A stretch of DNA of 64,000 bases from Escherichia phage vB_EcoM_Goslar, in sequence record NC_048170.1. One strand, written 5' to 3'. The notes under the pieces are model-generated. The model saw only the letters and a list, made by a program, of their open reading frames with translations, searched no databases and was not told where the DNA came from. Positions 4,853 through 44,988 of this stretch are shown one piece after another (the stretch's first letter is position 1; every line of letters begins with the position of its first letter). Both the position numbers and the translations under genes were made by a program.

Positions 4853-5017
4853 CGTTTTTCACCTCGTCGTAAAAGTAAATAGAGTTTTGTCGAGACGCCC
4901 TAATTACTTACAACGTCGGTTCTCCCGGCTTCAGAGAATTCTTAAAATCCGTTAGTTTTGATAGATAGGGTAAGACGGCATAAAAGCCTCCCATTACGGG
5001 AGGCTCTATTAATCAGC

Positions 5018-6562: not shown

Positions 6563-6626
6563 GTTAACCTCAACACGAACATAACCCTCCTCCAACCCGT
6601 AAGGGAAGGAGGAGGTGATTATGCTG

Positions 6627-12988: not shown

Positions 12989-12998
12989 CGGTTGGCGA

Positions 12999-14057: not shown

Positions 14058-14744
14058 TTAACACATGATTTCACCATGTTTCTTTTCAACATACGTATAA
14101 ACGTCATCCAAATAAGCAATGAGTTTATCACGATCCGCACAGAGCGATTTAATCACCGCAATCTCTTTCATATAAAGCTGCTGACCTAACGCCGGATATG
14201 TAATCCACGCGTAGCCGTCAGGCGCAAATTTAGAAATAAGATAATCAGCGGTTTCCTGTAATGCGAACTCTTTACTCATCTGGCCGTAACGATGTTCGAT
14301 TGCGCGGATACCAAAACGTTCGCTATCGAGACGGCCCATATCTGCCAGACGAAGCACCTGAGAAGCAACCGAACTACGTGGACCAGAGTACGAGGCACGA
14401 TGTTCAGCAATAAGTACGCGTATCTCCTCGATGTCCTCCGGTGTGAAAATATGCTGCTCGTTACGAAGCAGGATAACCGACGCACGAATACCCCCGATAA
14501 GGTGGTGGTATGTTCTGTTTTCGTGGCAAGCGATATCATGCATAAAAGCAGCGGTTAATAGACGACGACGTTCCGTGGGTCTGATGATCCCAACCACATC
14601 AGCAAGTTCATTTGCCAGTTCAACAACAGCAAGCACATGTTCTTCTTGATGTGCAAGATCGTTCTTCCGAATATTTTCAATTACTTCGGTGCGTGTTTCC
14701 GGAGATAAGAAATTTAAACAATCCAACGAATATAAAGATTTCAT
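14058..14744 (-). CDS. putative HD-domain phosphohydrolase
   Basis: EEHVLAVVELA ... AAFMHDIA ... LRLADMGRLD gives an H...HD...D pattern. Confidence 0.45.
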   Translation of the reverse strand: MKSLYSLDCLNFLSPETRTEVIENIRKNDLAHQEEHVLAVVELANELADVVGIIRPTERRRLLTAAFMHDIACHENRTYHHLIGGIRASVILLRNEQHIFTPEDIEEIRVLIAEHRASYSGPRSSVASQVLRLADMGRLDSERFGIRAIEHRYGQMSKEFALQETADYLISKFAPDGYAWITYPALGQQLYMKEIAVIKSLCADRDKLIAYLDDVYTYVEKKHGEIMC

Positions 14745-14785
14745 CGCACGTACCTCTTTGAATCTATTAATAAATTTTCTTTACT

Positions 14786-14809
14786 CACGTAAGTAATATA
14801 GCCGTGAAA
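14786..14809 (-). promoter_or_regulatory. conserved promoter-like motif, copy 1
   Basis: Plus-strand cacgtaagtaatatagccgtgaaa, identical 24-mer at 38055-38078; minus-sense contains TATATTAC; 42 nt upstream of the minus gene start at 14744. Confidence 0.45.
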
Positions 14810-14888
14810 GGATTTGTGTTGGTCCGTCTCGATGCCCATCGTATTTTATGGATTGTCGAATGACGTCATTTTAAGGGACATCCCCGGC

Positions 14889-14922
14889 CTCCTCCCCAGG
14901 AAAGGTGTGGGGAGGAGTTTTT
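14889..14922 (+). terminator. intrinsic-terminator-like hairpin with U tract, plus orientation
   Basis: 10-bp stem ctcctcccca/tggggaggag, 9-nt loop, then TTTTTAT; sits 30 nt upstream of the helicase ATG with no plus-strand gene upstream. Confidence 0.4.
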
Positions 14923-14952
14923 ATCATACATTCTATTAAATCGAGCGCGATT

Positions 14953-17034
14953 ATGTTGGATAGAATCAATCGTTTAATGAACCGAATAACGGTTAAAAAT
15001 CAGAGTAACAATAGCGTGCATATCGGGGGTATCGATGCCTGGCGTCTTTCAGATGACATTCAGCGAATATGGGGTACCTCCCGATTTATGAAACATATGT
15101 TTCGTAATTTCTCTTCTAGTGGACTCAGTCTCCACAACTTTTACCTTCTCGATTTCGTTTATATTCTCGAAACGATCGTCGAAGCAAAGAATACCCGCAG
15201 TAATAAACGCATGCTGAAACACCTTATTGAGGTACTGCTGCAGGAAACCTGGTTGCAAAATACCACAATCGAGCAACCTGCAATCCTCGATAAAGCACGC
15301 ATGAACAAAATGCTAACGCTCTCCCTGTTCGATTATCAAGATGAGTTTATCGACATCTATAACCGTAACGTACCTAAATATCGACTGAAAGGATACGTGT
15401 GTGCGATGGGTGCGGGTGCTGGTAAAACAATCACCGCATTGGCTTTAAGCGCCGCAATGAACGTCGACGTATTTGTGGTCTGCTGTCCTAAGAACACCAT
15501 GCGTTCAGCATGGCAATCCGATGTAAACAAAGCCATCGTTGACCTCGCGACAGAAACCGCATTCTGGTCAGATACAATGCCACCATCACAGCTGCAGAAA
15601 AGCGATAAGTATTATTTTCTGCATTACGAGTCGATGGGTTTATTAAACGATGTAATGATCAAGCATAAACGCACCGCGAAGCGCGTGTTGATCGTGGTTG
15701 ATGAAAGCCATAACTTCAACGACAAGAACAGCCAACGTTCCCAACGACTGGTTGATCTCGTACAGACGATGCGTCAGACCATGAATGCGGATGTGCATGT
15801 CTTGTTTATGTCGGGTACGCCCGTTAAACAGATGGGTTCTGAGATGATCCCCTGTTTAGGTTGTATCGATCCGATGTTCCAAGGACAAGTGGTCGATAGC
15901 TTCAAAGCAATTTACGGTTTAACCAGCAGTCGCGCTAACGATATCCTCAGACATCGTCTTGGGTTCATGATGCATGTCGTACCTAAAGAGGCTTACCGTA
16001 AAACCCGTCCGGAAGTTCAGGATGTTTACGTGAAGCTTCCTAATGGTAGCGATTATACCATCTCGAGTATCCGCGACGACATGGCGATATTTGTACGCGA
16101 TCGGGCGAAGTATTACAAGGATAACTGGGGGCATTACAGAAAGATTTTTGATGACGCCTTGGACTACTATCGCAAGACTATTCGTACCGATGGTGAACGT
16201 AAAGAGCTATCTCGATACGAATCGATTGTTGCTCGTTTCCAGAAAGGTTACGACCCCGTCAGAGACAAAGAAGATGCGATGTTCTGCAACGTGTTTGAAA
16301 AACGAGCGATCATGCCGGTTCTTCCTTCTGATTTAAGGGTTGCTTTCAAAGACGCCAAGAGCGTCATCAAGTACGTTGGGTTGAAAATTCAGGGTGAAGC
16401 GTTGGCGCGTGTTCTAGGTGCAGCCCGCATTCGGTGTCATGTCGACATGGTGGAGTACATCGACTTCGAAGGGTACATCAACAACGCTGAAGCCAAGGTG
16501 TTGATCTTCACGTCGTACGTTCAGGTGGTTGAGCGCGTCGACAACATGCTTCGTGATGCGGGTTTCTTACCTGAACCCATTTACGGGAAGACCAACAAAA
16601 ACATCAACCAGATACTTGCTCGTCTACGCGATGATCCTGACAGCGGTCCCGCTATCGCAACATTTGATAGCTTAGCTGAAGGGGTTCCGATGCTGATGTG
16701 TAACGTCGGCCTTTTCCTGAACAATCCATGGCGCTCATCCGATGAAATCCAAGCCATCAGCCGTCTCGACCGTGTCGGGCAAACGCAGCCTGTTCGGATT
16801 TATCGTTTCATGTTGGATACAGGAAGCGAGGGTAACGTTTCTACACGTAGCCACGAAATCATGGAGTTAAGTCGACAGCTTGTTGAAGAAATCACGGGTG
16901 TCAAATATGTAGTGAACAAGCAAGACGATGTTAACTTGCAAGAAACGTTGGCGATGGAAGGATACGATCAATACGTTACCGTAAACACCACGGAATACGA
17001 TATTAAACCGCGACCTGCATTCTTGGAATGGTGA
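14953..17034 (+). CDS. SNF2-family (SF2) ATP-dependent helicase
   Basis: Walker A GAGAGKT, DExH box LIVVDESHNF, motif III MSGTP, motif VI QAISRLDRVGQ. Start set at ATG 14953 (ORF track begins at GTG 14905 inside the hairpin). Confidence 0.7.
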   Translation: MLDRINRLMNRITVKNQSNNSVHIGGIDAWRLSDDIQRIWGTSRFMKHMFRNFSSSGLSLHNFYLLDFVYILETIVEAKNTRSNKRMLKHLIEVLLQETWLQNTTIEQPAILDKARMNKMLTLSLFDYQDEFIDIYNRNVPKYRLKGYVCAMGAGAGKTITALALSAAMNVDVFVVCCPKNTMRSAWQSDVNKAIVDLATETAFWSDTMPPSQLQKSDKYYFLHYESMGLLNDVMIKHKRTAKRVLIVVDESHNFNDKNSQRSQRLVDLVQTMRQTMNADVHVLFMSGTPVKQMGSEMIPCLGCIDPMFQGQVVDSFKAIYGLTSSRANDILRHRLGFMMHVVPKEAYRKTRPEVQDVYVKLPNGSDYTISSIRDDMAIFVRDRAKYYKDNWGHYRKIFDDALDYYRKTIRTDGERKELSRYESIVARFQKGYDPVRDKEDAMFCNVFEKRAIMPVLPSDLRVAFKDAKSVIKYVGLKIQGEALARVLGAARIRCHVDMVEYIDFEGYINNAEAKVLIFTSYVQVVERVDNMLRDAGFLPEPIYGKTNKNINQILARLRDDPDSGPAIATFDSLAEGVPMLMCNVGLFLNNPWRSSDEIQAISRLDRVGQTQPVRIYRFMLDTGSEGNVSTRSHEIMELSRQLVEEITGVKYVVNKQDDVNLQETLAMEGYDQYVTVNTTEYDIKPRPAFLEW

Positions 17035-17133: not shown

Positions 17134-18585
17134 ATGAAACTCAAACAAAGCTGGAAAGACGAACTCCTTGCGCTAGTAAACAGCAAAAACAGCTTACAAC
17201 TGACGTTAGACGATGTAAAATTTGAACTGACGGCACCGGTAAGCGAAGTGCCTGGAACGGTTGTTGTTACGATCAAACCGAACGACGATAGCCGTTACTT
17301 TAACGAGCAATCTCTGACCTACGTTCGTCGAGACATCGCTAAAAACTTCACCGGGATCCCGTTACGGGTTATCGTTAAAAATGATACCGCCGTAAGGGAT
17401 ATCATCAATACGATCGCTGAACGTTACGGATTAGTATTTGACACAACCGTCGACTTCCTCGAATCCGAGCTGAATAAACAAATTACGTTCGCAGACACCG
17501 GTATTAAAGACATTACGGTTCCGGTTGCAAACACGTCTTATGTTTGGGCGGGTAATCTTCAGTTCAATATCGCTAACGATACGTTGAGCTTGATTACGAT
17601 CATCAAGCAAACCAATCTTACGAATCTGGTTTATCTGGATGGTGTTGAAGCTGACACATCGGGTTCGTTACTATTAGCAACAACCTCGGTTATCGGCGAA
17701 AACGGAAATGCCGAAACAACTGAAGGTGTCCTTGACGCCGCGTACTTCCAGAATATCCTGAACGTCATGGTTCGTTATGGTGATATTAACAGCGAACAAA
17801 TGCAACAAGCAATGCAGACAATTAACCAAAGCGAAGACGCTCGTAGAGTAGAAGTGCGGTCATACGGTGACGCCGAGTTACTGGTAACCACCAAGAAAGA
17901 TTGGGTTATCGGTAGCCTTAAGGGTGCTATGGTTGTTGGTCACGCTTCACCTAAACCGATCCAATACGTTCTTAAAACAAAAGGCGGCACCATTATATTG
18001 TCATTAGATGGTTGGACAAATGTCAATATCGATTGGGGTGATGGGAATAAGACGACGCAGGACTCAGGCGATAATGAATATCAGCACAATTATGCTGACA
18101 CTACAGAACGTACAATCGTCGCTACGGGTACCCCTACCAACACTGAAGATACAGACGTACAGCAAAGCTTCACCGGTGGTAACATCACTGAAATCGTTGA
18201 CTGGAACAACGGATTACCTAAGGCCCCATCATTCCTTGCGGCGAACAGTTTAATTAAGGTTCCCGATTATATCCCGGCATATTGGACGTCGTTAGAAAGT
18301 ATGTTTACGCGATGCAGCGCTATTAACGACGTGAGCATCACCAAATGGAACACCCGCAACGTTACTTCAATGAAGGACCTCTTCTACGGTTGCGCTACGT
18401 TCAACCAACCGATCGGTTCGTGGGATGTTTCGTCTGTTAAGAATGCAGACAATATGTTGTCTGGGTGCTTCGCGTTCAATCAGGATCTGAGTGGTTGGAC
18501 ATTCCCGGCAGGCACTTCACACATCAACTACGACGGCATGACCGCCGCATGGCAGCCTGATCACAAACCACGCTTCACCGAGTAA
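17134..18585 (+). CDS. hypothetical protein with C-terminal DUF285-like (BspA-type) repeats
   Basis: Repeats of the form F..C..FNQ.I..WDVS.V.N....LSGCFAFNQDLSGW near the C-terminus. Confidence 0.5.
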   Translation: MKLKQSWKDELLALVNSKNSLQLTLDDVKFELTAPVSEVPGTVVVTIKPNDDSRYFNEQSLTYVRRDIAKNFTGIPLRVIVKNDTAVRDIINTIAERYGLVFDTTVDFLESELNKQITFADTGIKDITVPVANTSYVWAGNLQFNIANDTLSLITIIKQTNLTNLVYLDGVEADTSGSLLLATTSVIGENGNAETTEGVLDAAYFQNILNVMVRYGDINSEQMQQAMQTINQSEDARRVEVRSYGDAELLVTTKKDWVIGSLKGAMVVGHASPKPIQYVLKTKGGTIILSLDGWTNVNIDWGDGNKTTQDSGDNEYQHNYADTTERTIVATGTPTNTEDTDVQQSFTGGNITEIVDWNNGLPKAPSFLAANSLIKVPDYIPAYWTSLESMFTRCSAINDVSITKWNTRNVTSMKDLFYGCATFNQPIGSWDVSSVKNADNMLSGCFAFNQDLSGWTFPAGTSHINYDGMTAAWQPDHKPRFTE

Positions 18586-18607: not shown

Positions 18608-18639
18608 TTCCTCCCTACCCATAACGGGCGGGGAGGAAG
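18608..18639. terminator. GC hairpin between convergent genes
   Basis: cttcctccc ... gggaggaag inverted repeat followed by TTTAT; preceded by an A11 run. Confidence 0.45.
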
Positions 18640-18656
18640 GTTTATGACGATTTAAT

Positions 18657-31139: not shown

Positions 31140-32726
31140 TTATTTTTTTCCTCTTAAATTTACTACGTGTTCATTTAATCGAACAACTAATTGCACAAGC
31201 TGCTGACGGATATCTGCTGGACAAAGCATCAATCCTTTACGGTCAGCTGGGACTTTCTCAAGGATTTCCGGGCCTGCTGCTGAAACATCCCAGTCCCATT
31301 CACAAAACGCATCGGCCACCATGTTAATACCGACAACCGGTAAAGTTGTACGTTCATCTTCATACATGGCGTGTGGATACAATTTATTGACAGTAATGAT
31401 CTCCTGTGGTTTTAATTGGTGGATAATCTGATAAACATCGTCGCGTTTAACCTGGATACCTACGGTCAGCGCTGCCAGTTGAGGAAAACCCCAATGGTCT
31501 AATAAGCAAGCTGCAATCGCTAACGCTTTTGCTTGATGCACGGCTTCAATCGGTGCCAGACTTCTCGCCGGAAGATGGCTATCAAGCAACCATTGTGCCA
31601 GTGCTCGGCATCCGCGGTTGATTGGTTTTAACTCAACGGTGTCATCATGTTTAGCGTACGTGTATCCGTCGTAACGTTTTGCGATACGCGCATACATGTC
31701 TTCAACTTTACCGTAAGGTGCTGTTTCGTCGACGTCGTGTAACACACGTTCCATCTGGGTAAGATACGCGATGTCAAGAATGAGTACACGCGGTGAACGT
31801 TTATCTTTCACCATCAACGCATCAATCACGCCTTGACTGTCTTCATCTTGCGCGTTCCCTCGTGGGGTTTTCTCACGAATCGGTCCGCTGAAACGTCGTT
31901 CCGTACAAAGGTTATTCACGTAGCTAAAGATCAGTGTTACCAGATGCGTACAACTCACCAACACCCCATCTTTAACGACAGGCTGTACGGCTTGGTCCAA
32001 ATCGCGTACGGCGAGACGGCGGACGATGGCTTGTGAACGCAACCAGCCGGGCACTTTCTCCGTCGACATGTAATCCACGGTCATCGACAGCGTGATCTTT
32101 TTATCACCCGTCTGTGCGCGGATATAGTCTTCCAGTCGGTCGTAAGCGGCGATATCATGAATGCATGTTTTATACATCAACGACATAGCCACTTCTTCTT
32201 TACGGACTGTCCCGTACGTTTTCCCTGCGTCAATCAGAAACTCCGCCCAAATCGGCACCATCAGACGGACGTAGATCGCTAACGCCGTTAACTCAACGTA
32301 ATCATTTCGTAAATAGGTTTTCTCAGGTATGTCATCCTCACCTAATGTTGTTTTCATGTCCGGTGGTAATTTTACCCAACCTGGGGTATTACACAACGCC
32401 AGAATCTCTTCATACACAACCGGTTTGTAAATTTCACCAACAGCGCGACTCAACTCCTCCATTTGTTGTTGTGGAGCAATGTAGTTATCCATCGCTTCAC
32501 GTGCTTTAACGAACCCTTCGAAGATGTCGTCAATTCGACGTGGGTTCTTTTGTTCTATCCAGGCGAGATACTTGTTAATCTCCCGCATCTGATTGCTAGC
32601 CATATCCCCATCAATCTTGATGTAACCCTGGCCTGAAAATTCCACAGTACGTCCATCACGATGTTTGATGAGATAGTGATCCAGCTTTTCTTTTCCTTGC
32701 GTCGTAATGACGGGCACTATGTGCAT
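31140..32726 (-). CDS. hypothetical protein
   Basis: Start set at ATG 32726 (MHIVPV...) preceded by AGAGG; the longer ORF to 32861 has an Arg-rich extension. Confidence 0.5.
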   Translation of the reverse strand: MHIVPVITTQGKEKLDHYLIKHRDGRTVEFSGQGYIKIDGDMASNQMREINKYLAWIEQKNPRRIDDIFEGFVKAREAMDNYIAPQQQMEELSRAVGEIYKPVVYEEILALCNTPGWVKLPPDMKTTLGEDDIPEKTYLRNDYVELTALAIYVRLMVPIWAEFLIDAGKTYGTVRKEEVAMSLMYKTCIHDIAAYDRLEDYIRAQTGDKKITLSMTVDYMSTEKVPGWLRSQAIVRRLAVRDLDQAVQPVVKDGVLVSCTHLVTLIFSYVNNLCTERRFSGPIREKTPRGNAQDEDSQGVIDALMVKDKRSPRVLILDIAYLTQMERVLHDVDETAPYGKVEDMYARIAKRYDGYTYAKHDDTVELKPINRGCRALAQWLLDSHLPARSLAPIEAVHQAKALAIAACLLDHWGFPQLAALTVGIQVKRDDVYQIIHQLKPQEIITVNKLYPHAMYEDERTTLPVVGINMVADAFCEWDWDVSAAGPEILEKVPADRKGLMLCPADIRQQLVQLVVRLNEHVVNLRGKK

Positions 32727-32930
32727 AACAACCTCTTTTCGCGGTTCCCTGTTAAAACGTCTTCTGTGACGTCTACCACAAAGGTAATATAAGCGTGAAT
32801 AATTTTGGATTCCGGCTGAGTTATCGCTCAGCATGCAAGGCATCCCGCCGAAGCGAGACACCTTGCACTAACGGAAAATATTCGCGTTACCTTCTGAATC
32901 GAAGACTCAGAATGCGATGCTAAAGCATTA

Positions 32931-37989: not shown

Positions 37990-38054
37990 TAGGATTTAAT
38001 TTCCAATATAAGGGCAATGTGATATGCCTTATACAGTCGATTGATGTTGTACAT

Positions 38055-38078
38055 CACGTAAGTAATATAGCCGTGAAA
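38055..38078 (-). promoter_or_regulatory. conserved promoter-like motif, copy 2
   Basis: Identical 24-mer to 14786-14809; 66 nt upstream of the minus gene start at 37989. Confidence 0.45.
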
Positions 38079-38087
38079 AATGTTGGA

Positions 38088-38924
38088 TTAACGTGTTCTC
38101 CTATCACGATGCGTATACGACTGAAGACCGATGTCCATATGCGGTAACGTCAGCGTCTGCCAGATCTGTCGTGCGTAACGATCGAGCGTATGATCATCAG
38201 TAACACAATCGACGGGTTCGATGAGGTGAGTCGTATACTGGCTTTTCTCAGAGAAAGGTTCGATGTTAGCTGTATCTCCTAATCCGCTTTTCACCGTGAA
38301 GACAAGACGTGTGACTACCATCGCCTTATGCTGCTGTTCATTATAGCGAAGGCTACGATATACCGCATAGCTCCCTCCTTTTAGGCTTCGGGTATAACGA
38401 AGGTCGGAGGTCGTCTCGGAAATCTGATACAGCATCCAGTCCAACGTATCACGCCAGTACGCATCATCCACATCAGGAACTGTAATACCATACCGCGTAG
38501 GCAGCAGTTCTAAAAGCAATTTATAAAGTCCGCGACGCAAGCCATGCTCTTCTGTTTCCGATAAACCGTTTCCAACATAACGTGAAATACGCGTACGTAA
38601 ATACGTACGGATGAACATATTCGCCATCAGTGTTTTCACTCTGCTACTGGTATCCTCAAAGCGATCAACGCTGAAACTCGTTTCAATCAGCCGTCCATTA
38701 AAATACAATGCGGCAACATACATCGCATTACTGCTATCACGTTCAATGTTTAAACGTCCGCAGATATTGGCTGCGTCGTTCATGGTAAATTCTAACTTAT
38801 CGTGTTCGATACGATAGATAATATCCTCTTGGGTTGCTAGGCTCGCAATACGACGATAGCCCGGAGAAGTACGTTTTACACTCATGATTGTCCTCGTTTT
38901 CAATTTTAAGATTGCATGCGGCAT
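38088..38924 (-). CDS. hypothetical protein
   Basis: 278-aa ORF. Confidence 0.45.
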   Translation of the reverse strand: MPHAILKLKTRTIMSVKRTSPGYRRIASLATQEDIIYRIEHDKLEFTMNDAANICGRLNIERDSSNAMYVAALYFNGRLIETSFSVDRFEDTSSRVKTLMANMFIRTYLRTRISRYVGNGLSETEEHGLRRGLYKLLLELLPTRYGITVPDVDDAYWRDTLDWMLYQISETTSDLRYTRSLKGGSYAVYRSLRYNEQQHKAMVVTRLVFTVKSGLGDTANIEPFSEKSQYTTHLIEPVDCVTDDHTLDRYARQIWQTLTLPHMDIGLQSYTHRDRRTR

Positions 38925-43002: not shown

Positions 43003-44898
43003 TTAGAACAGGTTGAATGCCCCACCCATGTTGTTAACGCCAACATTCGGACGATCGCTACGTGCGTAGATGTTACCGGAGATGTTACCCAGACCACGAG
43101 CACGTGCTGCCATGTTACCACGAACAGCGGTACCTGCCAGATGCTGGATGTTCTCAGGACGGATGGTGAAGCCAGCATCAGCAGCGGCTTCGATCAGCGC
43201 CTGCAGTGCTAACGGATCGAAGTCGTAACGCATTGCCCAGCCGGTTTGTTCCCAGCTACCAGACAGAACACGATCGATGATTTCGTGACGAGCGACAACA
43301 CGCTGAGACATCGTCATATCGGTACGGTCGAAGCTGTCTTCCCAAGCTTCTACGGTATCCGGGTTAGTGATGTTCATCATGTACAGATCGTCCATATCAC
43401 GAATATCGTGACGGTGACCATCCTGGTGGTTGTAGTGACCCAGCGGGATACGGTTACCGGTAGCGTAGACCAGCGGTAAGCCGTATTGATATTTCTTGCT
43501 GAAGCAACCCAGGGTAACATCATCGAACGCACGGTAAAGCGCTTTGTAACCTTCGGAGATTTCACGGACTTCACCTTCAACTTTGCCCGTATAGATCTTC
43601 TCAGCCGCCGGGATCATACGCAGCAGCCAGCTGTACTCACCTTCTTCCGGTACGTCGATAGAAATCAGCAGAGACGGATACAGTACCTGTTGCAGGAACT
43701 TGTAAATCTGCTCGTTGGTTTGAGTGGACAGATCCAGCGGTGCGGTAACTTCCGGATCCAGTACCATCGCCAGAGCACCCGGGTTATGCGGACCAATACC
43801 ACGGGCAGCGTTGCTGATTAAAGACTGTGCCCACGCCATACCGCTGTTCAGCGTAGCGATGGTGCCAATCAGCCCCAACACGAAAGTGTTCGGCGTGAAC
43901 GCATCCAGCTCCAGCGGGTAAGCGCTGGTCATCACGTAACGCGGCTGGTATTGTACAGTCGGCGGTACCGGATAACCGTTAACCAGAACAGGGCCTTGGT
44001 TGAAGGTCGGGTTCTGCGGGCTGTAGGTCAGGTCGATGTAACCGGTGGTGGCGACCAGACGCTGTTGACTATCGTAATCGCTCATCGCTTGACGGATACG
44101 GTTAGAGATAGTTACAGTGATGTCAGAACGCACAGGGTTACCAACAATATCGCTGTCCTGCATACCGCTGGTGTTATACTGAACGCTGCTGATTGGCTGA
44201 TCGCTTGCCATCATGCCCAGGTTGAACTGCGGCAGACCCAGTTTATCACCGAGACGGATTTCGATCGCGGTTTGGATTGCGTTATCTGCAGCAGACAGCA
44301 GGGTGGTTGCCAGATGCGCAGATTCAGCGGTGATTTCATTGGTCACCACAGCCAGACCAGCGATACGAGCAGTACCATTAGACTTACCGCCAATAGCTGC
44401 ATACATTGCCGCCATGACTTCGTTGATGAACGTACCGTTCAGGTTATCAACCCAGGTACGCGGTACCAGAATGTTACCATGCGGACCTTGTTCTTCACGA
44501 CGCGGCAGCGGAGCCAAACCGGCAACCAGCGGAAGCACATAACCAAAGAAGTGGTTATGGTCACCAACTTTTGCACCACTCATAACGACCAGGGTCGGAT
44601 ACGGTACGCTGTACTGGTTCGGGTCAACCGCAACAAAGATGAAGTCGTCTTTGAACCGGGTATCTTCCAGATATTTCTCCATCAGACGACGGAGATTCAG
44701 TACCTGCTCGGAGCCAGTATTACGGCTAATACGACGGCTCAGTGTACGGTTGATCGTACGCATCGTATGAGTTACTTTAGGCTGGCCAGCAAAATCTGCA
44801 GCGGTTTCCAGCGCCTCATCAGCACGTTGTGCGGTGCGGGTTTCAGCTGCACGAATTTCTACATTATCGTTACCGTTATTACGTACGTCTAAGCCCAT
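43003..44898 (-). CDS. abundant structural protein candidate: chimallin-like nuclear-shell protein (alternative: capsid or sheath protein)
   Basis: 631-aa ORF with codon usage that looks strongly biased; promoter-like motif 67 nt upstream; sits immediately upstream of the beta'-N gene, the arrangement I recall for the phiKZ shell-protein and RNAP genes. No diagnostic motif seen by eye. Confidence 0.45.
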   Translation of the reverse strand: MGLDVRNNGNDNVEIRAAETRTAQRADEALETAADFAGQPKVTHTMRTINRTLSRRISRNTGSEQVLNLRRLMEKYLEDTRFKDDFIFVAVDPNQYSVPYPTLVVMSGAKVGDHNHFFGYVLPLVAGLAPLPRREEQGPHGNILVPRTWVDNLNGTFINEVMAAMYAAIGGKSNGTARIAGLAVVTNEITAESAHLATTLLSAADNAIQTAIEIRLGDKLGLPQFNLGMMASDQPISSVQYNTSGMQDSDIVGNPVRSDITVTISNRIRQAMSDYDSQQRLVATTGYIDLTYSPQNPTFNQGPVLVNGYPVPPTVQYQPRYVMTSAYPLELDAFTPNTFVLGLIGTIATLNSGMAWAQSLISNAARGIGPHNPGALAMVLDPEVTAPLDLSTQTNEQIYKFLQQVLYPSLLISIDVPEEGEYSWLLRMIPAAEKIYTGKVEGEVREISEGYKALYRAFDDVTLGCFSKKYQYGLPLVYATGNRIPLGHYNHQDGHRHDIRDMDDLYMMNITNPDTVEAWEDSFDRTDMTMSQRVVARHEIIDRVLSGSWEQTGWAMRYDFDPLALQALIEAAADAGFTIRPENIQHLAGTAVRGNMAARARGLGNISGNIYARSDRPNVGVNNMGGAFNLF

Positions 44899-44964
44899 TT
44901 GGGATTCCTCTTTTCTTAAACTTTATTAAATGACGTCATTGAATCAGCTTCTACTCGCTCATTC

Positions 44965-44988
44965 ACCTAGGTAATATAACCCTGAAAT
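44965..44988 (-). promoter_or_regulatory. conserved promoter-like motif, copy 3
   Basis: cacctaggtaatataaccctgaaa, 20/24 identical to copies 1 and 2; 67 nt upstream of the gene start at 44898. Confidence 0.4.

What the first reader, a model, noticed from the sequence alone, without database searches (positions are those of the whole stretch)
14745..14952. Terminator-like hairpin with U tract on the plus strand directly upstream of the SNF2 helicase gene
The 10-bp stem plus TTTTTAT at 14889-14922 is oriented to terminate plus-strand transcription, but no plus-strand gene lies upstream. It could end a short plus-strand RNA that is antisense to the promoter region of gene 14058-14744, or act as a 5' leader attenuator or stability element for the helicase mRNA.
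Basis: seen in the sequence. Interest (0 to 1): 0.4.

Follow-up and report, generated by a model that had tools for sequence, protein, structure and literature searches.

The report
Leader terminator before jumbo-phage helicase gene
The hairpin is real and is most likely a phiKZ-type transcription terminator in the untranslated leader of the helicase gene of an uncultured nucleus-forming jumbo phage, an arrangement already shown by experiment in phiKZ, so it is a well-supported example of a known kind, not a new one.

Summary
There is a perfect 10-bp stem at 14889-14898/14908-14917, a 9-nt loop and T5 at 14918-14922 (about -20 kcal/mol). It is the only hairpin of this quality in the window, and none appeared in 300 shuffles.

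The window comes from a divergent chimallivirus: it has a chimallin gene, phiKZ-type early promoters and a PHIKZ203-like helicase. The hairpin matches the core of the conserved phiKZ terminator motif (CCYCCCC...GGGRRGG...TTAT). Other copies of that motif end genes elsewhere in the window.

An 85-nt block (14838-14922) is identical in a relative whose flanking genes are only 82-88% identical. Two more distant lineages (58-61% helicase identity) keep ATTTTATGG..TGTCGAATGA, followed by a different strong hairpin with a T-rich tail at the same distance.

Best reading: a leader terminator about 40 nt downstream of an inferred TATG-type start site (G14850). It would release a roughly 73-nt RNA, and read-through would give the helicase mRNA. 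This mirrors phiKZ T102.

The minus-strand promoter (TATATTAC, 14800-14793) lies outside this RNA, so the antisense idea fails. The start site and termination itself are inferred. This is a new member of a known kind, of modest interest.

The parts
14784..14807 (-). Early (virion RNA polymerase type) promoter of the HD-domain gene cluster. The core TATATTAC is at 14800-14793, in the context TTTCACGGCTATATTACTTACGTG.
   Evidence: It is an exact match to the phiKZ early consensus TATATTAC and to the 201phi2-1 motif TTTRARR_BTATATTACDWHDGTG (PMC7058600 Table 2). All four copies in the window are on the minus strand, and three lie upstream of genes. It is conserved in all relatives, including the 58-61% lineages.
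14842..14850 (+). Inferred late-type promoter element TATTTTATG, with TATG at 14847-14850 and the predicted start at G14850.
   Evidence: The phiKZ late promoter is T(-3)ATG(+1) (PMC7598289). Cross-lineage conservation begins exactly at ATTTTATGG, and the sequence upstream of it cannot be aligned between lineages. This is inferred, not shown: TATG alone is not enriched on the sense strand of intergenic regions.
14850..14922 (+). Predicted leader RNA of about 73 nt, the product of premature termination. The same sequence is the first 73 nt of the 103-nt helicase 5'UTR.
   Evidence: The block 14838-14922 is 100% identical in L006, where the flanking genes are 82-88% identical. The fold is given. 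It holds no conserved ORF.
14854..14863 (+). TGTCGAATGA, a locus-specific motif at +5 to +14 of the predicted leader.
   Evidence: It is invariant across all three lineages and unique in the window.
14859..14870 (.). 12-bp palindrome AATGACGTCATT.
   Evidence: A second exact copy at 44929-44940 lies in the chimallin 5'UTR. The palindrome is not kept in the 58-61% lineages.
14889..14917 (+). Terminator hairpin: 5' arm 14889-14898, loop 14899-14907, 3' arm 14908-14917.
   Evidence: It matches the core CCYCCCC...GGGRRGG...TTAT of the phiKZ terminator motif (PMC10914365; regex test). In L003 the top pair A14898-U14908 is replaced by G-C.
14918..14924 (+). T tract TTTTT followed by AT, which is the TTAT tail of the motif.
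   Evidence: It is TGTTTT in L007.
14925..14952 (+). Variable spacer before the start codon. It contains a small hairpin, AATCG-AGCG-CGATT (14939-14952), that abuts the ATG, and the Shine-Dalgarno sequence is weak.
   Evidence: Indels and substitutions occur here in L003, L006 and L007. TATC is not conserved, so there is no TATG-type promoter after the hairpin in this lineage. The SD duplex energy is -2.5 kcal/mol, against -4 to -12 for most genes.
14953..17034 (+). SNF2/DEAD-like helicase gene, the orthologue of the phiKZ virion protein PHIKZ203.
   Evidence: Pfam hits ResIII, SNF2-rel_dom and Helicase_C. It is 30-39% identical to jumbo-phage helicases. phiKZ mapping is.
17134..18585 (+). Second gene of the plus-strand unit (DUF7941 + DUF285).
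   Evidence: The synteny is kept in L019, L021 and L022.
18610..18645 (+). Canonical motif terminator that ends the plus-strand unit: CCTCCCTACCC-ATAAC-GGGCGGGGAGG..TTTATG.
   Evidence: Found by the regex scan. It lies 25 nt after the stop codon at 18585.

Best explanation
The hairpin is an intrinsic, phiKZ-type transcription terminator inside the 103-nt 5' untranslated leader of the helicase-DUF7941 transcription unit. Plus-strand transcription most likely starts at G14850 of a TATG-type (non-virion RNA polymerase, late-type) promoter. About 40 nt later the polymerase transcribes the 10-bp G+C-rich hairpin and U tract. A fraction of complexes terminate there and release a structured RNA of about 73 nt. 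The rest read through to make the helicase mRNA, which ends at the canonical terminator at 18610. The element would therefore set, and possibly time, the low expression of a virion-associated helicase, and it would yield a 5'UTR-derived short RNA as a by-product or as a regulator. What is shown: the structure, its statistical rarity, the match to the family's terminator motif, the extreme conservation of the 85-nt block, and the replacement of the hairpin by unrelated hairpins at the same position in two other lineages. What is inferred: the start site, actual termination, the read-through fraction, and any regulation.
For: 1. The hairpin with its T tract folds at -20.2 kcal/mol. It is unique in 64 kb and absent from 300 shuffles.

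2. The host genome is a chimallivirus. It has a chimallin gene, phiKZ-type early promoters and a helicase orthologous to PHIKZ203.

3. phiKZ intrinsic terminators share the motif BCCYCCCCHWWDGGGRRGGBYTTATKYYGT (PMC10914365). The hairpin matches its core CCTCCCC...GGGGAGG...TTAT. The same regex finds bona fide gene-end terminators in the window and in 79 kb of phiKZ.

4. The block 14838-14922 has 0 differences in 85 nt in L006, although the flanking genes are 82-88% identical. The only changes in the stem arms and T tract among nine sequences are a compensatory A-U to G-C in L003 and one T-to-G in the T tract of L007; L003 also carries a 1-nt insertion in the A run upstream of the hairpin.

5. 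Lineages with 58-61% identical helicases keep the synteny, the minus-strand early promoter and ATTTTATGG(N2-3)TGTCGAATGA. Each has a different hairpin with a T-rich tail starting at +39 to +47: -22.6 kcal/mol with the canonical tail TTTATGCCGT in L019, and -12.9 kcal/mol with T5 in L021.

6. The spacer after the T tract varies and carries indels. It lacks TATG in the window lineage and in L021, so helicase transcripts there must pass through the hairpin.

7. There is experimental precedent. Six Pseudomonas phages together have 42 terminators inside 5'UTRs, and phiKZ contributes 17 of the 29 curated 5'UTR-derived ncRNA candidates. T102 in the PHIKZ221 leader aborts more than 90% of transcripts and gives a 71-nt RNA confirmed by northern blot (PMC10914365). 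Its anatomy in the phiKZ sequence is TATG, about 35 nt, a -22 kcal/mol hairpin, then a U-rich TTAT tail. Eight of the eleven sRNAs in 201phi2-1 arise the same way (PMC11512511).
Against: No transcript data exist for this phage, so neither the start site nor termination is shown. The TATG 4-mer is not enriched on the sense strand of intergenic regions (4.5 versus 4.8 per kb). The start-site assignment therefore rests on analogy and on where cross-lineage conservation begins. Covariation within the close clade is minimal: one pair in one sequence, and 68 of 500 shuffles do as well. The loop (9 nt) and the tail after TTAT (CATAC) depart from the phiKZ consensus. In the L019 lineage the tail does contain TATG, so there the helicase could have its own promoter after the hairpin. 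The strict sequence invariance of the stem and loop in the close clade is more than a plain terminator needs, which hints at an additional sequence-specific role. Helicase orthologues in Proteus phage 10, Eowyn and RAY have no comparable leader hairpin, and phiKZ has only a weaker one.
Confidence: 0.6

Rival explanations
1. It is a stand-alone small RNA gene. The 73-nt RNA has its own promoter and a fully efficient terminator and acts in trans, while the helicase is transcribed from a separate promoter.
For: The 5' part of the RNA (UGUCGAAUGA) is invariant across three lineages, and the whole RNA is invariant in the close clade. That is more than a terminator needs. In L019 the hairpin tail TTTATGCCGT contains TATG, so a separate helicase promoter is possible in that lineage. 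The 12-nt self-complementary AAUGACGUCAUU also occurs in the chimallin leader.
Against: In the window lineage and in L021 the 30-40 nt between the T tract and the ATG is variable, carries indels and has no TATG or early motif. The complement of the conserved seed occurs nowhere else in the window. A duplex screen against all 5' regions of the window did not rank chimallin among the best eight. The palindrome is not kept in the other lineages.
Confidence: 0.12
2. It is a 5' stem-loop that protects the helicase mRNA from 5'-end-dependent decay, or that modulates its translation, with little real termination.
For: The hairpin is stable and lies near the 5' end of the leader. The helicase has an unusually weak Shine-Dalgarno sequence, and a small hairpin abuts its ATG. 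The 3' arm GGGGAGGAG is SD-like, and another gene in the window (38088-38924) uses a terminator 3' arm as its SD.
Against: The hairpin starts at +40, not at the 5' end. In all three lineages it is followed by a T-rich tail that a stabiliser does not need. It matches the terminator motif. No start codon lies at SD distance from GGAGGAG, and the frame there is not conserved.
Confidence: 0.1
3. It is an insulator terminator. It stops stray plus-strand (antisense) transcription that arises inside the upstream minus-strand early gene cluster, so that such transcription does not run into the late helicase unit.
For: About 9% of mapped phage terminators lie antisense to genes (PMC10914365). The hairpin is one-way and sits at a boundary between an early unit and a presumably late one.
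Against: This does not explain why conservation begins only 50 nt upstream, at a TATG element, and includes a locus-specific motif kept at fixed spacing across lineages. By contrast, the spacing to the minus-strand promoter varies between lineages because of lineage-specific insertions and deletions.
Confidence: 0.08
4. It is a DNA-level element, for example a cruciform or a binding site for a dimeric regulator at the palindrome and inverted repeat, that controls the two divergent promoters.
For: There is an exact 12-bp palindrome at 14859-14870 with a second copy in the chimallin leader. A different palindrome occupies the same chimallin-leader position in a 46% lineage. A compensatory change also preserves a DNA inverted repeat.
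Against: The T tract is on one side only, the hairpin matches the RNA terminator motif, and the stems are lineage-specific. These features fit an RNA signal better. The palindrome is absent from the helicase leader in the other lineages.
Confidence: 0.05

Closest known systems
phiKZ terminator T102 in the 5'UTR of PHIKZ221 (71-nt short RNA; Putzeys et al. 2024, PMC10914365)
   Same: The anatomy is the same: a TATG-type start, 35-40 nt, a hairpin of about -20 to -22 kcal/mol, a U-rich tail containing TTAT, then 20-30 nt to the start codon. The predicted product is 73 nt, against the 71 nt observed for T102.
   Different: There is no sequence homology, and the downstream gene is different. T102 has transcript and northern-blot evidence, whereas this element has none. 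Here the leader also carries a conserved 5' motif (TGTCGAATGA) and a palindrome.
Conserved phiKZ intrinsic terminator motif BCCYCCCCHWWDGGGRRGGBYTTATKYYGT (61 sites in phiKZ)
   Same: It has the C-rich 5' arm CCTCCCC, the G-rich 3' arm GGGGAGG and the TTAT tail. The same motif ends genes elsewhere in this window, at 5006, 12989, 38953, 52609 and 18610.
   Different: The loop is 9 nt, not about 4 nt. There is a longer T5 run before AT. The tail is CATAC where the consensus has KYYGT (the window's other copies have GCCGT). It sits in a divergent intergenic region with no upstream gene.
5'UTR-derived sRNAs and promoter-proximal terminators of phage 201phi2-1 (sRNA005; T055/T056 after the capsid promoters; PMC11512511)
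   Same: In both cases premature termination occurs immediately downstream of a start site in a chimallivirus, upstream of a virion-protein gene, and the element is conserved among related phages.
   Different: The genes and sequences are different. An antitermination factor is only hypothesised there, and nothing here points to one.
Classical bacterial leader attenuators (trp/his leader peptide; PyrR, T-box, riboswitches)
   Same: Each has a terminator inside a 5' leader that gates a downstream gene.
   Different: There is no conserved leader peptide, because the mini-ORF frames differ between lineages. I found no alternative antiterminator pairing. No Rfam family matched: the best hit was PyrR at 15.9 bits against a gathering score of 54.

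Membership tests
Canonical intrinsic (Rho-independent) terminator | G+C-rich stem of at least 5-6 bp with a short loop | tested here: met
   The stem is 10 perfect base pairs, 7 of them G-C, with a 9-nt loop. The fold is -20.2 kcal/mol.
Canonical intrinsic (Rho-independent) terminator | U tract immediately 3' of the stem | tested here: met
   TTTTT at 14918-14922 starts directly after the stem. It reads TGTTTT in L007.
Canonical intrinsic (Rho-independent) terminator | RNA 3' ends map in the U tract, or the element terminates in a reporter | not testable with these tools
   No transcriptome or assay exists for this phage.
phiKZ-type conserved terminator motif (Putzeys 2024) | 5' arm CCYCCCC and 3' arm GGGRRGG | tested here: met
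   CCTCCCC is at 14891-14897 and GGGGAGG at 14909-14915.
phiKZ-type conserved terminator motif (Putzeys 2024) | Tetraloop-size loop (HWWD) | tested here: not met
   The loop is GGAAAGGTG, 9 nt. Other terminators in the window have loops of 4-5 nt.
phiKZ-type conserved terminator motif (Putzeys 2024) | Tail YTTATKYYGT | tested here: inconclusive
   TTAT is present (TTTTTAT), but it is followed by CATAC and not KYYGT. The orthologous hairpin in L019 has the full TTTATGCCGT.
Chimallivirus 5'UTR premature-termination leader / 5'UTR-derived short RNA | A transcription start site lies less than 250 nt upstream of the terminator with no gene in between | tested here: inconclusive
   TATG is at 14847-14850, and cross-lineage conservation starts there. 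However, TATG alone carries no statistical signal, and no 5'-end data exist.
Chimallivirus 5'UTR premature-termination leader / 5'UTR-derived short RNA | The terminator lies between the start site and the start codon of the downstream gene | tested here: met
   The hairpin ends 30 nt before ATG 14953. The arrangement is the same in L019, L021 and L022.
Chimallivirus 5'UTR premature-termination leader / 5'UTR-derived short RNA | The short RNA has no ORF of 10 or more codons with a Shine-Dalgarno sequence | tested here: met
   There is only an 8-codon ORF (14848-14874) without an SD. Its frame relative to the conserved motif differs between lineages.
Chimallivirus 5'UTR premature-termination leader / 5'UTR-derived short RNA | Sequence conservation upstream of the equivalent gene in relatives | tested here: met
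   The 85-nt block is 96.5-100% identical in eight relatives. The position and the 5' motif are kept at 58-61% helicase identity.
Chimallivirus 5'UTR premature-termination leader / 5'UTR-derived short RNA | Both a short and a read-through transcript with a common 5' end are detected | not testable with these tools
   This needs RNA from infected cells.
Rfam cis-regulatory RNA or riboswitch families | Match at or above the gathering score | tested here: not met
   There are no matches at gathering score in the window. The best sub-threshold hits in 14740-14960 are 14-16 bits against thresholds of 54-71.
Leader-peptide attenuator | A translated leader ORF plus mutually exclusive antiterminator and terminator structures | tested here: not met
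   There is no SD and no conserved frame. No competing structure appears in the MFE or centroid folds.

The most novel reading that the evidence does not exclude
The 73-nt leader RNA is more than an attenuation by-product. It could be a sequence-specific regulator, or the target of one. Its invariant 5' motif UGUCGAAUGA and the self-complementary AAUGACGUCAUU would be recognised by a phage factor. That factor could be an RNA- or DNA-binding dimer, or the RNA itself pairing with the identical 12-mer in the chimallin mRNA leader. Either way, this would couple helicase-unit transcription to expression of the nuclear-shell gene.
Probability: 0.07. Interest if true: 0.65.

Novelty: new member of a known kind. 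Interest (0 to 1): 0.3.

Why it matters
The finding extends promoter-proximal (5'UTR) termination to a very divergent, uncultured chimallivirus lineage. That behaviour has been shown by experiment only in phiKZ and 201phi2-1. This lineage is found in Salmonella and E. coli assemblies, and its chimallin is only about 23% identical to any isolated phage. Here the leader terminator has been kept at one locus while its sequence was replaced twice, which argues that premature termination ahead of this core virion helicase is selected and is not incidental. It also gives a compact, testable regulatory part (promoter, 73-nt leader and terminator) and a first regulatory map (early promoters, terminator motif) for an unannotated phage. 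It does not change how these phages are understood.

Tried and rejected
1. Small proteins. The 41-codon plus ORF 14814-14939 is broken by indels in L003, L006 and L007. The 8-codon ORF 14848-14874 has no SD, and its frame relative to the conserved motif differs in L019 and L021. An 11-codon minus-strand ORF (14886-14851) lies behind the SD-like GGAGGAGG, but no promoter is evident for it and it is not conserved in the other lineages. All three were rejected.

2. An N-terminal extension of the helicase from GTG 14905 or ATC 14923 behind GGAGGAG was rejected. Relatives differ by 1-2 nt indels there, and the ATC is lost.

3. A repeated or mobile element was rejected. The stem sequence has no other good copy in the window. 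The exact hairpin occurs once in the 237.5-kb IMG/VR relative, and a 27-nt piece of the leader (14859-14885) has no match in 185,579 reference genomes.

4. No known RNA family matched, and no tRNA or tmRNA gene was found.

5. No sigma-70 promoter-like site was found in 14745-14952.

6. No promoter was found downstream of the hairpin. TATC is not TATG and is not conserved.

7. TATG as a statistical promoter marker showed no sense-strand enrichment, so the start site stays an inference.

8. Covariation within the close clade is too small to carry weight.

9. Experimental start- and end-site tables for PHIKZ203 could not be checked. The supplements of the phiKZ and 201phi2-1 papers are not held, and Ceyssens 2014 is not held.

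10. The trans-target screen of the leader's 5' half against all 5' regions was not specific, and chimallin was not among the top hits.

11. No close named relative was found by megablast in phages, plasmids or complete E. coli genomes.

Full report
**Observation.** The plus strand reads CTCCTCCCCA (14889-14898), GGAAAGGTG (14899-14907) and TGGGGAGGAG (14908-14917), then TTTTT (14918-14922) and ATCAT. That is a perfect 10-bp stem with seven G-C pairs. With its tail the hairpin folds at -20.2 kcal/mol, z = -3.6, and none of 200 shuffles folded as well. It dominates both the MFE and the centroid structure in every context folded. The built-in terminator scan missed it only because its loop limit is 8 nt. 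My own scan for a perfect stem of at least 10 bp with at least 7 G-C pairs, a loop of 10 nt or less and T4 found this site alone in 64 kb on both strands, and none in 300 dinucleotide-preserving shuffles. On the minus strand the hairpin is followed by GCCGGGG, so the signal is one-way.

**What genome this is.** The window has no near-identical match among 50,697 phage records, in PLSDB plasmids or in complete E. coli genomes. Its helicase is 30-39% identical to the 'DEAD-like / virion-associated SNF2 helicase' of phiKZ-like jumbo phages. The phiKZ orthologue is PHIKZ203, a virion protein. The gene at 43003-44898(-) is a chimallin, the phage-nucleus shell protein (Pfam PF25677), and is only about 23% identical to any isolated phage. 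The window therefore comes from a deeply divergent chimallivirus. Related contigs of 235-259 kb occur in metagenomes and in assemblies labelled Salmonella enterica and E. coli.

**Regulatory grammar of the phage.** The phiKZ early (virion RNA polymerase) promoter consensus is TATATTAC, and 201phi2-1 has TTTRARR_BTATATTACDWHDGTG (PMC7058600). The window has four exact TATATTAC copies, all on the minus strand, in the context TTCACGGCTATATTACTTACGTG. One lies at 14800-14793, upstream of the HD gene. So the minus-strand gene has a recognisable early promoter whose transcript runs leftward from about 14786.

phiKZ intrinsic terminators share the motif BCCYCCCCHWWDGGGRRGGBYTTATKYYGT (PMC10914365). 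The window has the same motif at the ends of co-directional genes. One example is GAGCCTCCC-GTAAT-GGGAGGCTT-TTATGCCGT at 5006-4984. Others lie at 12989, 38953, 42976, 48570 and 52609 on the minus strand, and at 18610 on the plus strand, 25 nt after the stop of the gene that follows the helicase. The hairpin under study matches the core of this motif (CCTCCCC...GGGGAGG...TTAT). It differs in having a 9-nt loop and a tail of CATAC where the other copies have GCCGT. It is the only copy that sits in a divergent intergenic region with no gene upstream on its strand.

**Comparative evidence, close clade.** Eight relatives with helicase genes 83-98% identical at the DNA level were aligned. In L006 the HD gene is 87.8% identical and the helicase 83.5%, yet the 85 nt from 14838 to 14922 show no difference at all. 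The intergenic flanks on either side do vary (88.6% and 85%). Across all sequences, the only changes in the stem arms and T tract are two. One is a double change in L003 that turns the top pair A14898-U14908 into G-C. The other is a T-to-G in the T tract of L007. L003 also has a 1-nt insertion in the A run upstream of the hairpin. Taken alone the covariation is weak, since nine pairs never vary and 68 of 500 shuffles do as well. The level of conservation is far above that of the neighbouring coding DNA. The 30 nt between the T tract and the ATG carry substitutions and 1-2 nt indels. This rules out an N-terminal extension of the helicase and shows that the TATC after the hairpin is not conserved.

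**Comparative evidence, distant lineages.** A protein search found helicases 58-61% identical, and their contigs keep the order HD(-), helicase(+), DUF7941(+). Their intergenic regions cannot be aligned with the window except for three things:

- the minus-strand early promoter;
- ATTTTATGG followed 2-3 nt later by TGTCGAATGA;
- a strong hairpin with a T-rich tail at the same distance, but with an unrelated sequence.

In L019 and L022 the hairpin is GCCTTCGGACGTG-ATCCTACC-CATGTCCGAAGGT. It folds at -22.6 kcal/mol (z = -7.0) and is followed by ATTTCTTTATGCCGT, the full canonical tail. In L021 it is GCCCCCT-13 nt-AGGGGGT, then C and TTTTT, at -12.9 kcal/mol. Counted from the G of TATG, the hairpins start at +40, +47 and +39, and the leaders are 103, 121-122 and 103 nt long. 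The spacing from this unit to the minus-strand promoter varies between lineages because of lineage-specific insertions and deletions. The conserved unit therefore belongs to the plus strand. Keeping a hairpin and U tract at one position while its sequence turns over is the strongest argument that the structure, and hence termination, is what selection maintains.

**Mechanism.** phiKZ late promoters are defined only by T(-3)ATG(+1), and all four bases are required in vitro (PMC7598289). The only plus-strand TATG in the intergenic region is at 14847-14850, exactly where cross-lineage conservation begins. I therefore place the start at G14850. This is an inference, because TATG alone is not enriched on the sense strand of intergenic regions (4.5 versus 4.8 per kb). 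From that start the polymerase would reach the hairpin after 39 nt and the U tract at +69 to +73, giving an RNA of about 73 nt (fold). In the window lineage and in L021 there is no TATG or early motif between the hairpin and the ATG, so helicase mRNA must arise by read-through. The unit would then end at the canonical terminator at 18610. The helicase has one of the weakest Shine-Dalgarno matches among confident genes (-2.5 kcal/mol against -4 to -12). A 5-bp hairpin (14939-14952) abuts its ATG. Both features fit a low-copy virion protein. I found no leader peptide and no alternative antiterminator pairing. Any regulation would have to come from a trans factor or from the intrinsic efficiency of the terminator.

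**Comparison with what is known.** ONT-cappable-seq of six Pseudomonas phages found 42 terminators inside 5'UTRs, and 81% of them give either a long transcript or a dominant short RNA under 250 nt. phiKZ contributes 17 of the 29 curated 5'UTR-derived ncRNA candidates. T102 in the PHIKZ221 leader aborts more than 90% of transcripts and yields a 71-nt RNA confirmed by northern blot (PMC10914365). In the phiKZ sequence that leader is TATG, about 35 nt, a -22 kcal/mol hairpin, then UGUUAUAAUG, then the SD and ATG. That is the same layout as here. In 201phi2-1, eight of eleven sRNAs arise by premature termination in 5'UTRs, and terminators sit directly after the capsid promoters (PMC11512511). The present element is thus a new member of a known kind. 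It has no sequence homology to those examples and no Rfam match. Helicase orthologues in Proteus phage 10, Eowyn and RAY show no comparable leader hairpin. phiKZ has only a weaker hairpin with TTTTTATTCG about 80 nt upstream of PHIKZ203, plus a canonical motif hairpin oriented towards PHIKZ204. The published phiKZ start- and end-site tables were not available to check.

The leader attenuator is supported. A stability element is not excluded. The RNA antisense to the promoter of 14058-14744 is not supported, because the early promoter (14800-14793) and its leftward transcript do not overlap an RNA spanning 14850-14922.

**What remains unexplained.** The stem, the loop and the 5' half of the leader are invariant in the close clade, which is more than a terminator needs. 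TGTCGAATGA is invariant across all lineages and unique in the window. The 12-bp palindrome AATGACGTCATT (14859-14870) has one other exact copy, at 44929-44940 in the chimallin 5'UTR. A 46%-identity chimallin lineage has a different palindrome (TTGTCGACAA or TGTCGACA) at the same leader position. This could mark a shared regulator site or an RNA-RNA contact. However, the palindrome is absent from the helicase leader in the other lineages, and a duplex screen did not single out chimallin. I rate such a reading at about 7%.

**Verdict.** The structure is real, non-random and under selection. It is most likely a promoter-proximal phiKZ-type terminator in the helicase leader (confidence 0.6), with start-site and termination data still needed. 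Interest is modest (0.3), because the phenomenon is already documented in model chimalliviruses.

Noticed in passing
window 44929-44940 (and 14859-14870); L029:1455-1470; L033:55-70: The exact 12-bp palindrome AATGACGTCATT from the helicase leader recurs once in the window, in the 5'UTR of the chimallin (nuclear shell) gene, downstream of its early promoter at 44978-44971. A chimallin lineage at 46% identity has a different palindrome (TTGTCGACAA or TGTCGACA) at the same leader position. This may be an operator or an RNA contact site.
   Followed up: partly
whole window; cluster of P0121: The phage is an uncultured, deeply divergent chimallivirus. Its chimallin is about 23% and its helicase at most 39% identical to isolated phages. 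Its 235-259 kb contigs turn up in NCBI assemblies labelled Salmonella enterica and E. coli as well as in metagenomes. It has no near match in INPHARED phages, PLSDB or complete E. coli genomes.
   Followed up: partly
window 38953-38922 (minus strand): The terminator ACCCTCCCTGC-ATAAG-GCGGGGAGGGT is followed by TTTATG. Its G-rich 3' arm serves as the Shine-Dalgarno sequence, and the ATG of its TTTATG tail is the start codon of gene 38088-38924. Terminator and translation start are fused.
   Followed up: no
window 14784-14807, 32775-32798, 38053-38076, 44962-44985 (minus strand): There are four phiKZ-type early promoters with the consensus TTCACGGCTATATTACYTWNGTG. They precede the HD-gene cluster, a 161-aa gene and chimallin. 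The copy at about 32791 lies inside the annotated GTG-start ORF 31140-32861, which suggests that ORF really starts further downstream.
   Followed up: partly
window 14939-14955: A small hairpin, AATCG-AGCG-CGATT, abuts the helicase ATG, and the helicase Shine-Dalgarno match is among the weakest in the window. In L006 the second pair changes from A-U to U.G with both sides altered. This may limit translation.
   Followed up: partly
L022:3001-6135 (protein P0012): One helicase homologue is 1044 aa long and carries a LAGLIDADG_3 domain. Several jumbo-phage orthologues align in two pieces and are annotated 'DarB-like'. An intein or homing endonuclease therefore seems to insert repeatedly into this helicase.
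   Followed up: no
L019:2910-2916 and the equivalent position in L020-L028: A G homopolymer in the helicase leader of the 58% lineage varies between 5 and 7 G among otherwise identical assemblies. This is either assembly noise or slippage.
   Followed up: no
L017:4769-5118 (phiKZ 212,768-213,117, PHIKZ203/204 intergenic region): The 350-bp divergent region upstream of the phiKZ helicase holds an early promoter for PHIKZ204. It also holds a canonical motif hairpin (AAAGGAGCCC-CTGGT-GGGCTCCTTT) that reads as a terminator towards PHIKZ204 (tail TTTATGCC), and a long G+C-rich stretch that looks structured. No annotation covers it.
   Followed up: no
window 6589-6626: A CCTCC...GGAGG hairpin matches the loose terminator pattern on both strands, with TTATG tails in both directions. 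It may be a bidirectional terminator between minus-strand genes.
   Followed up: no
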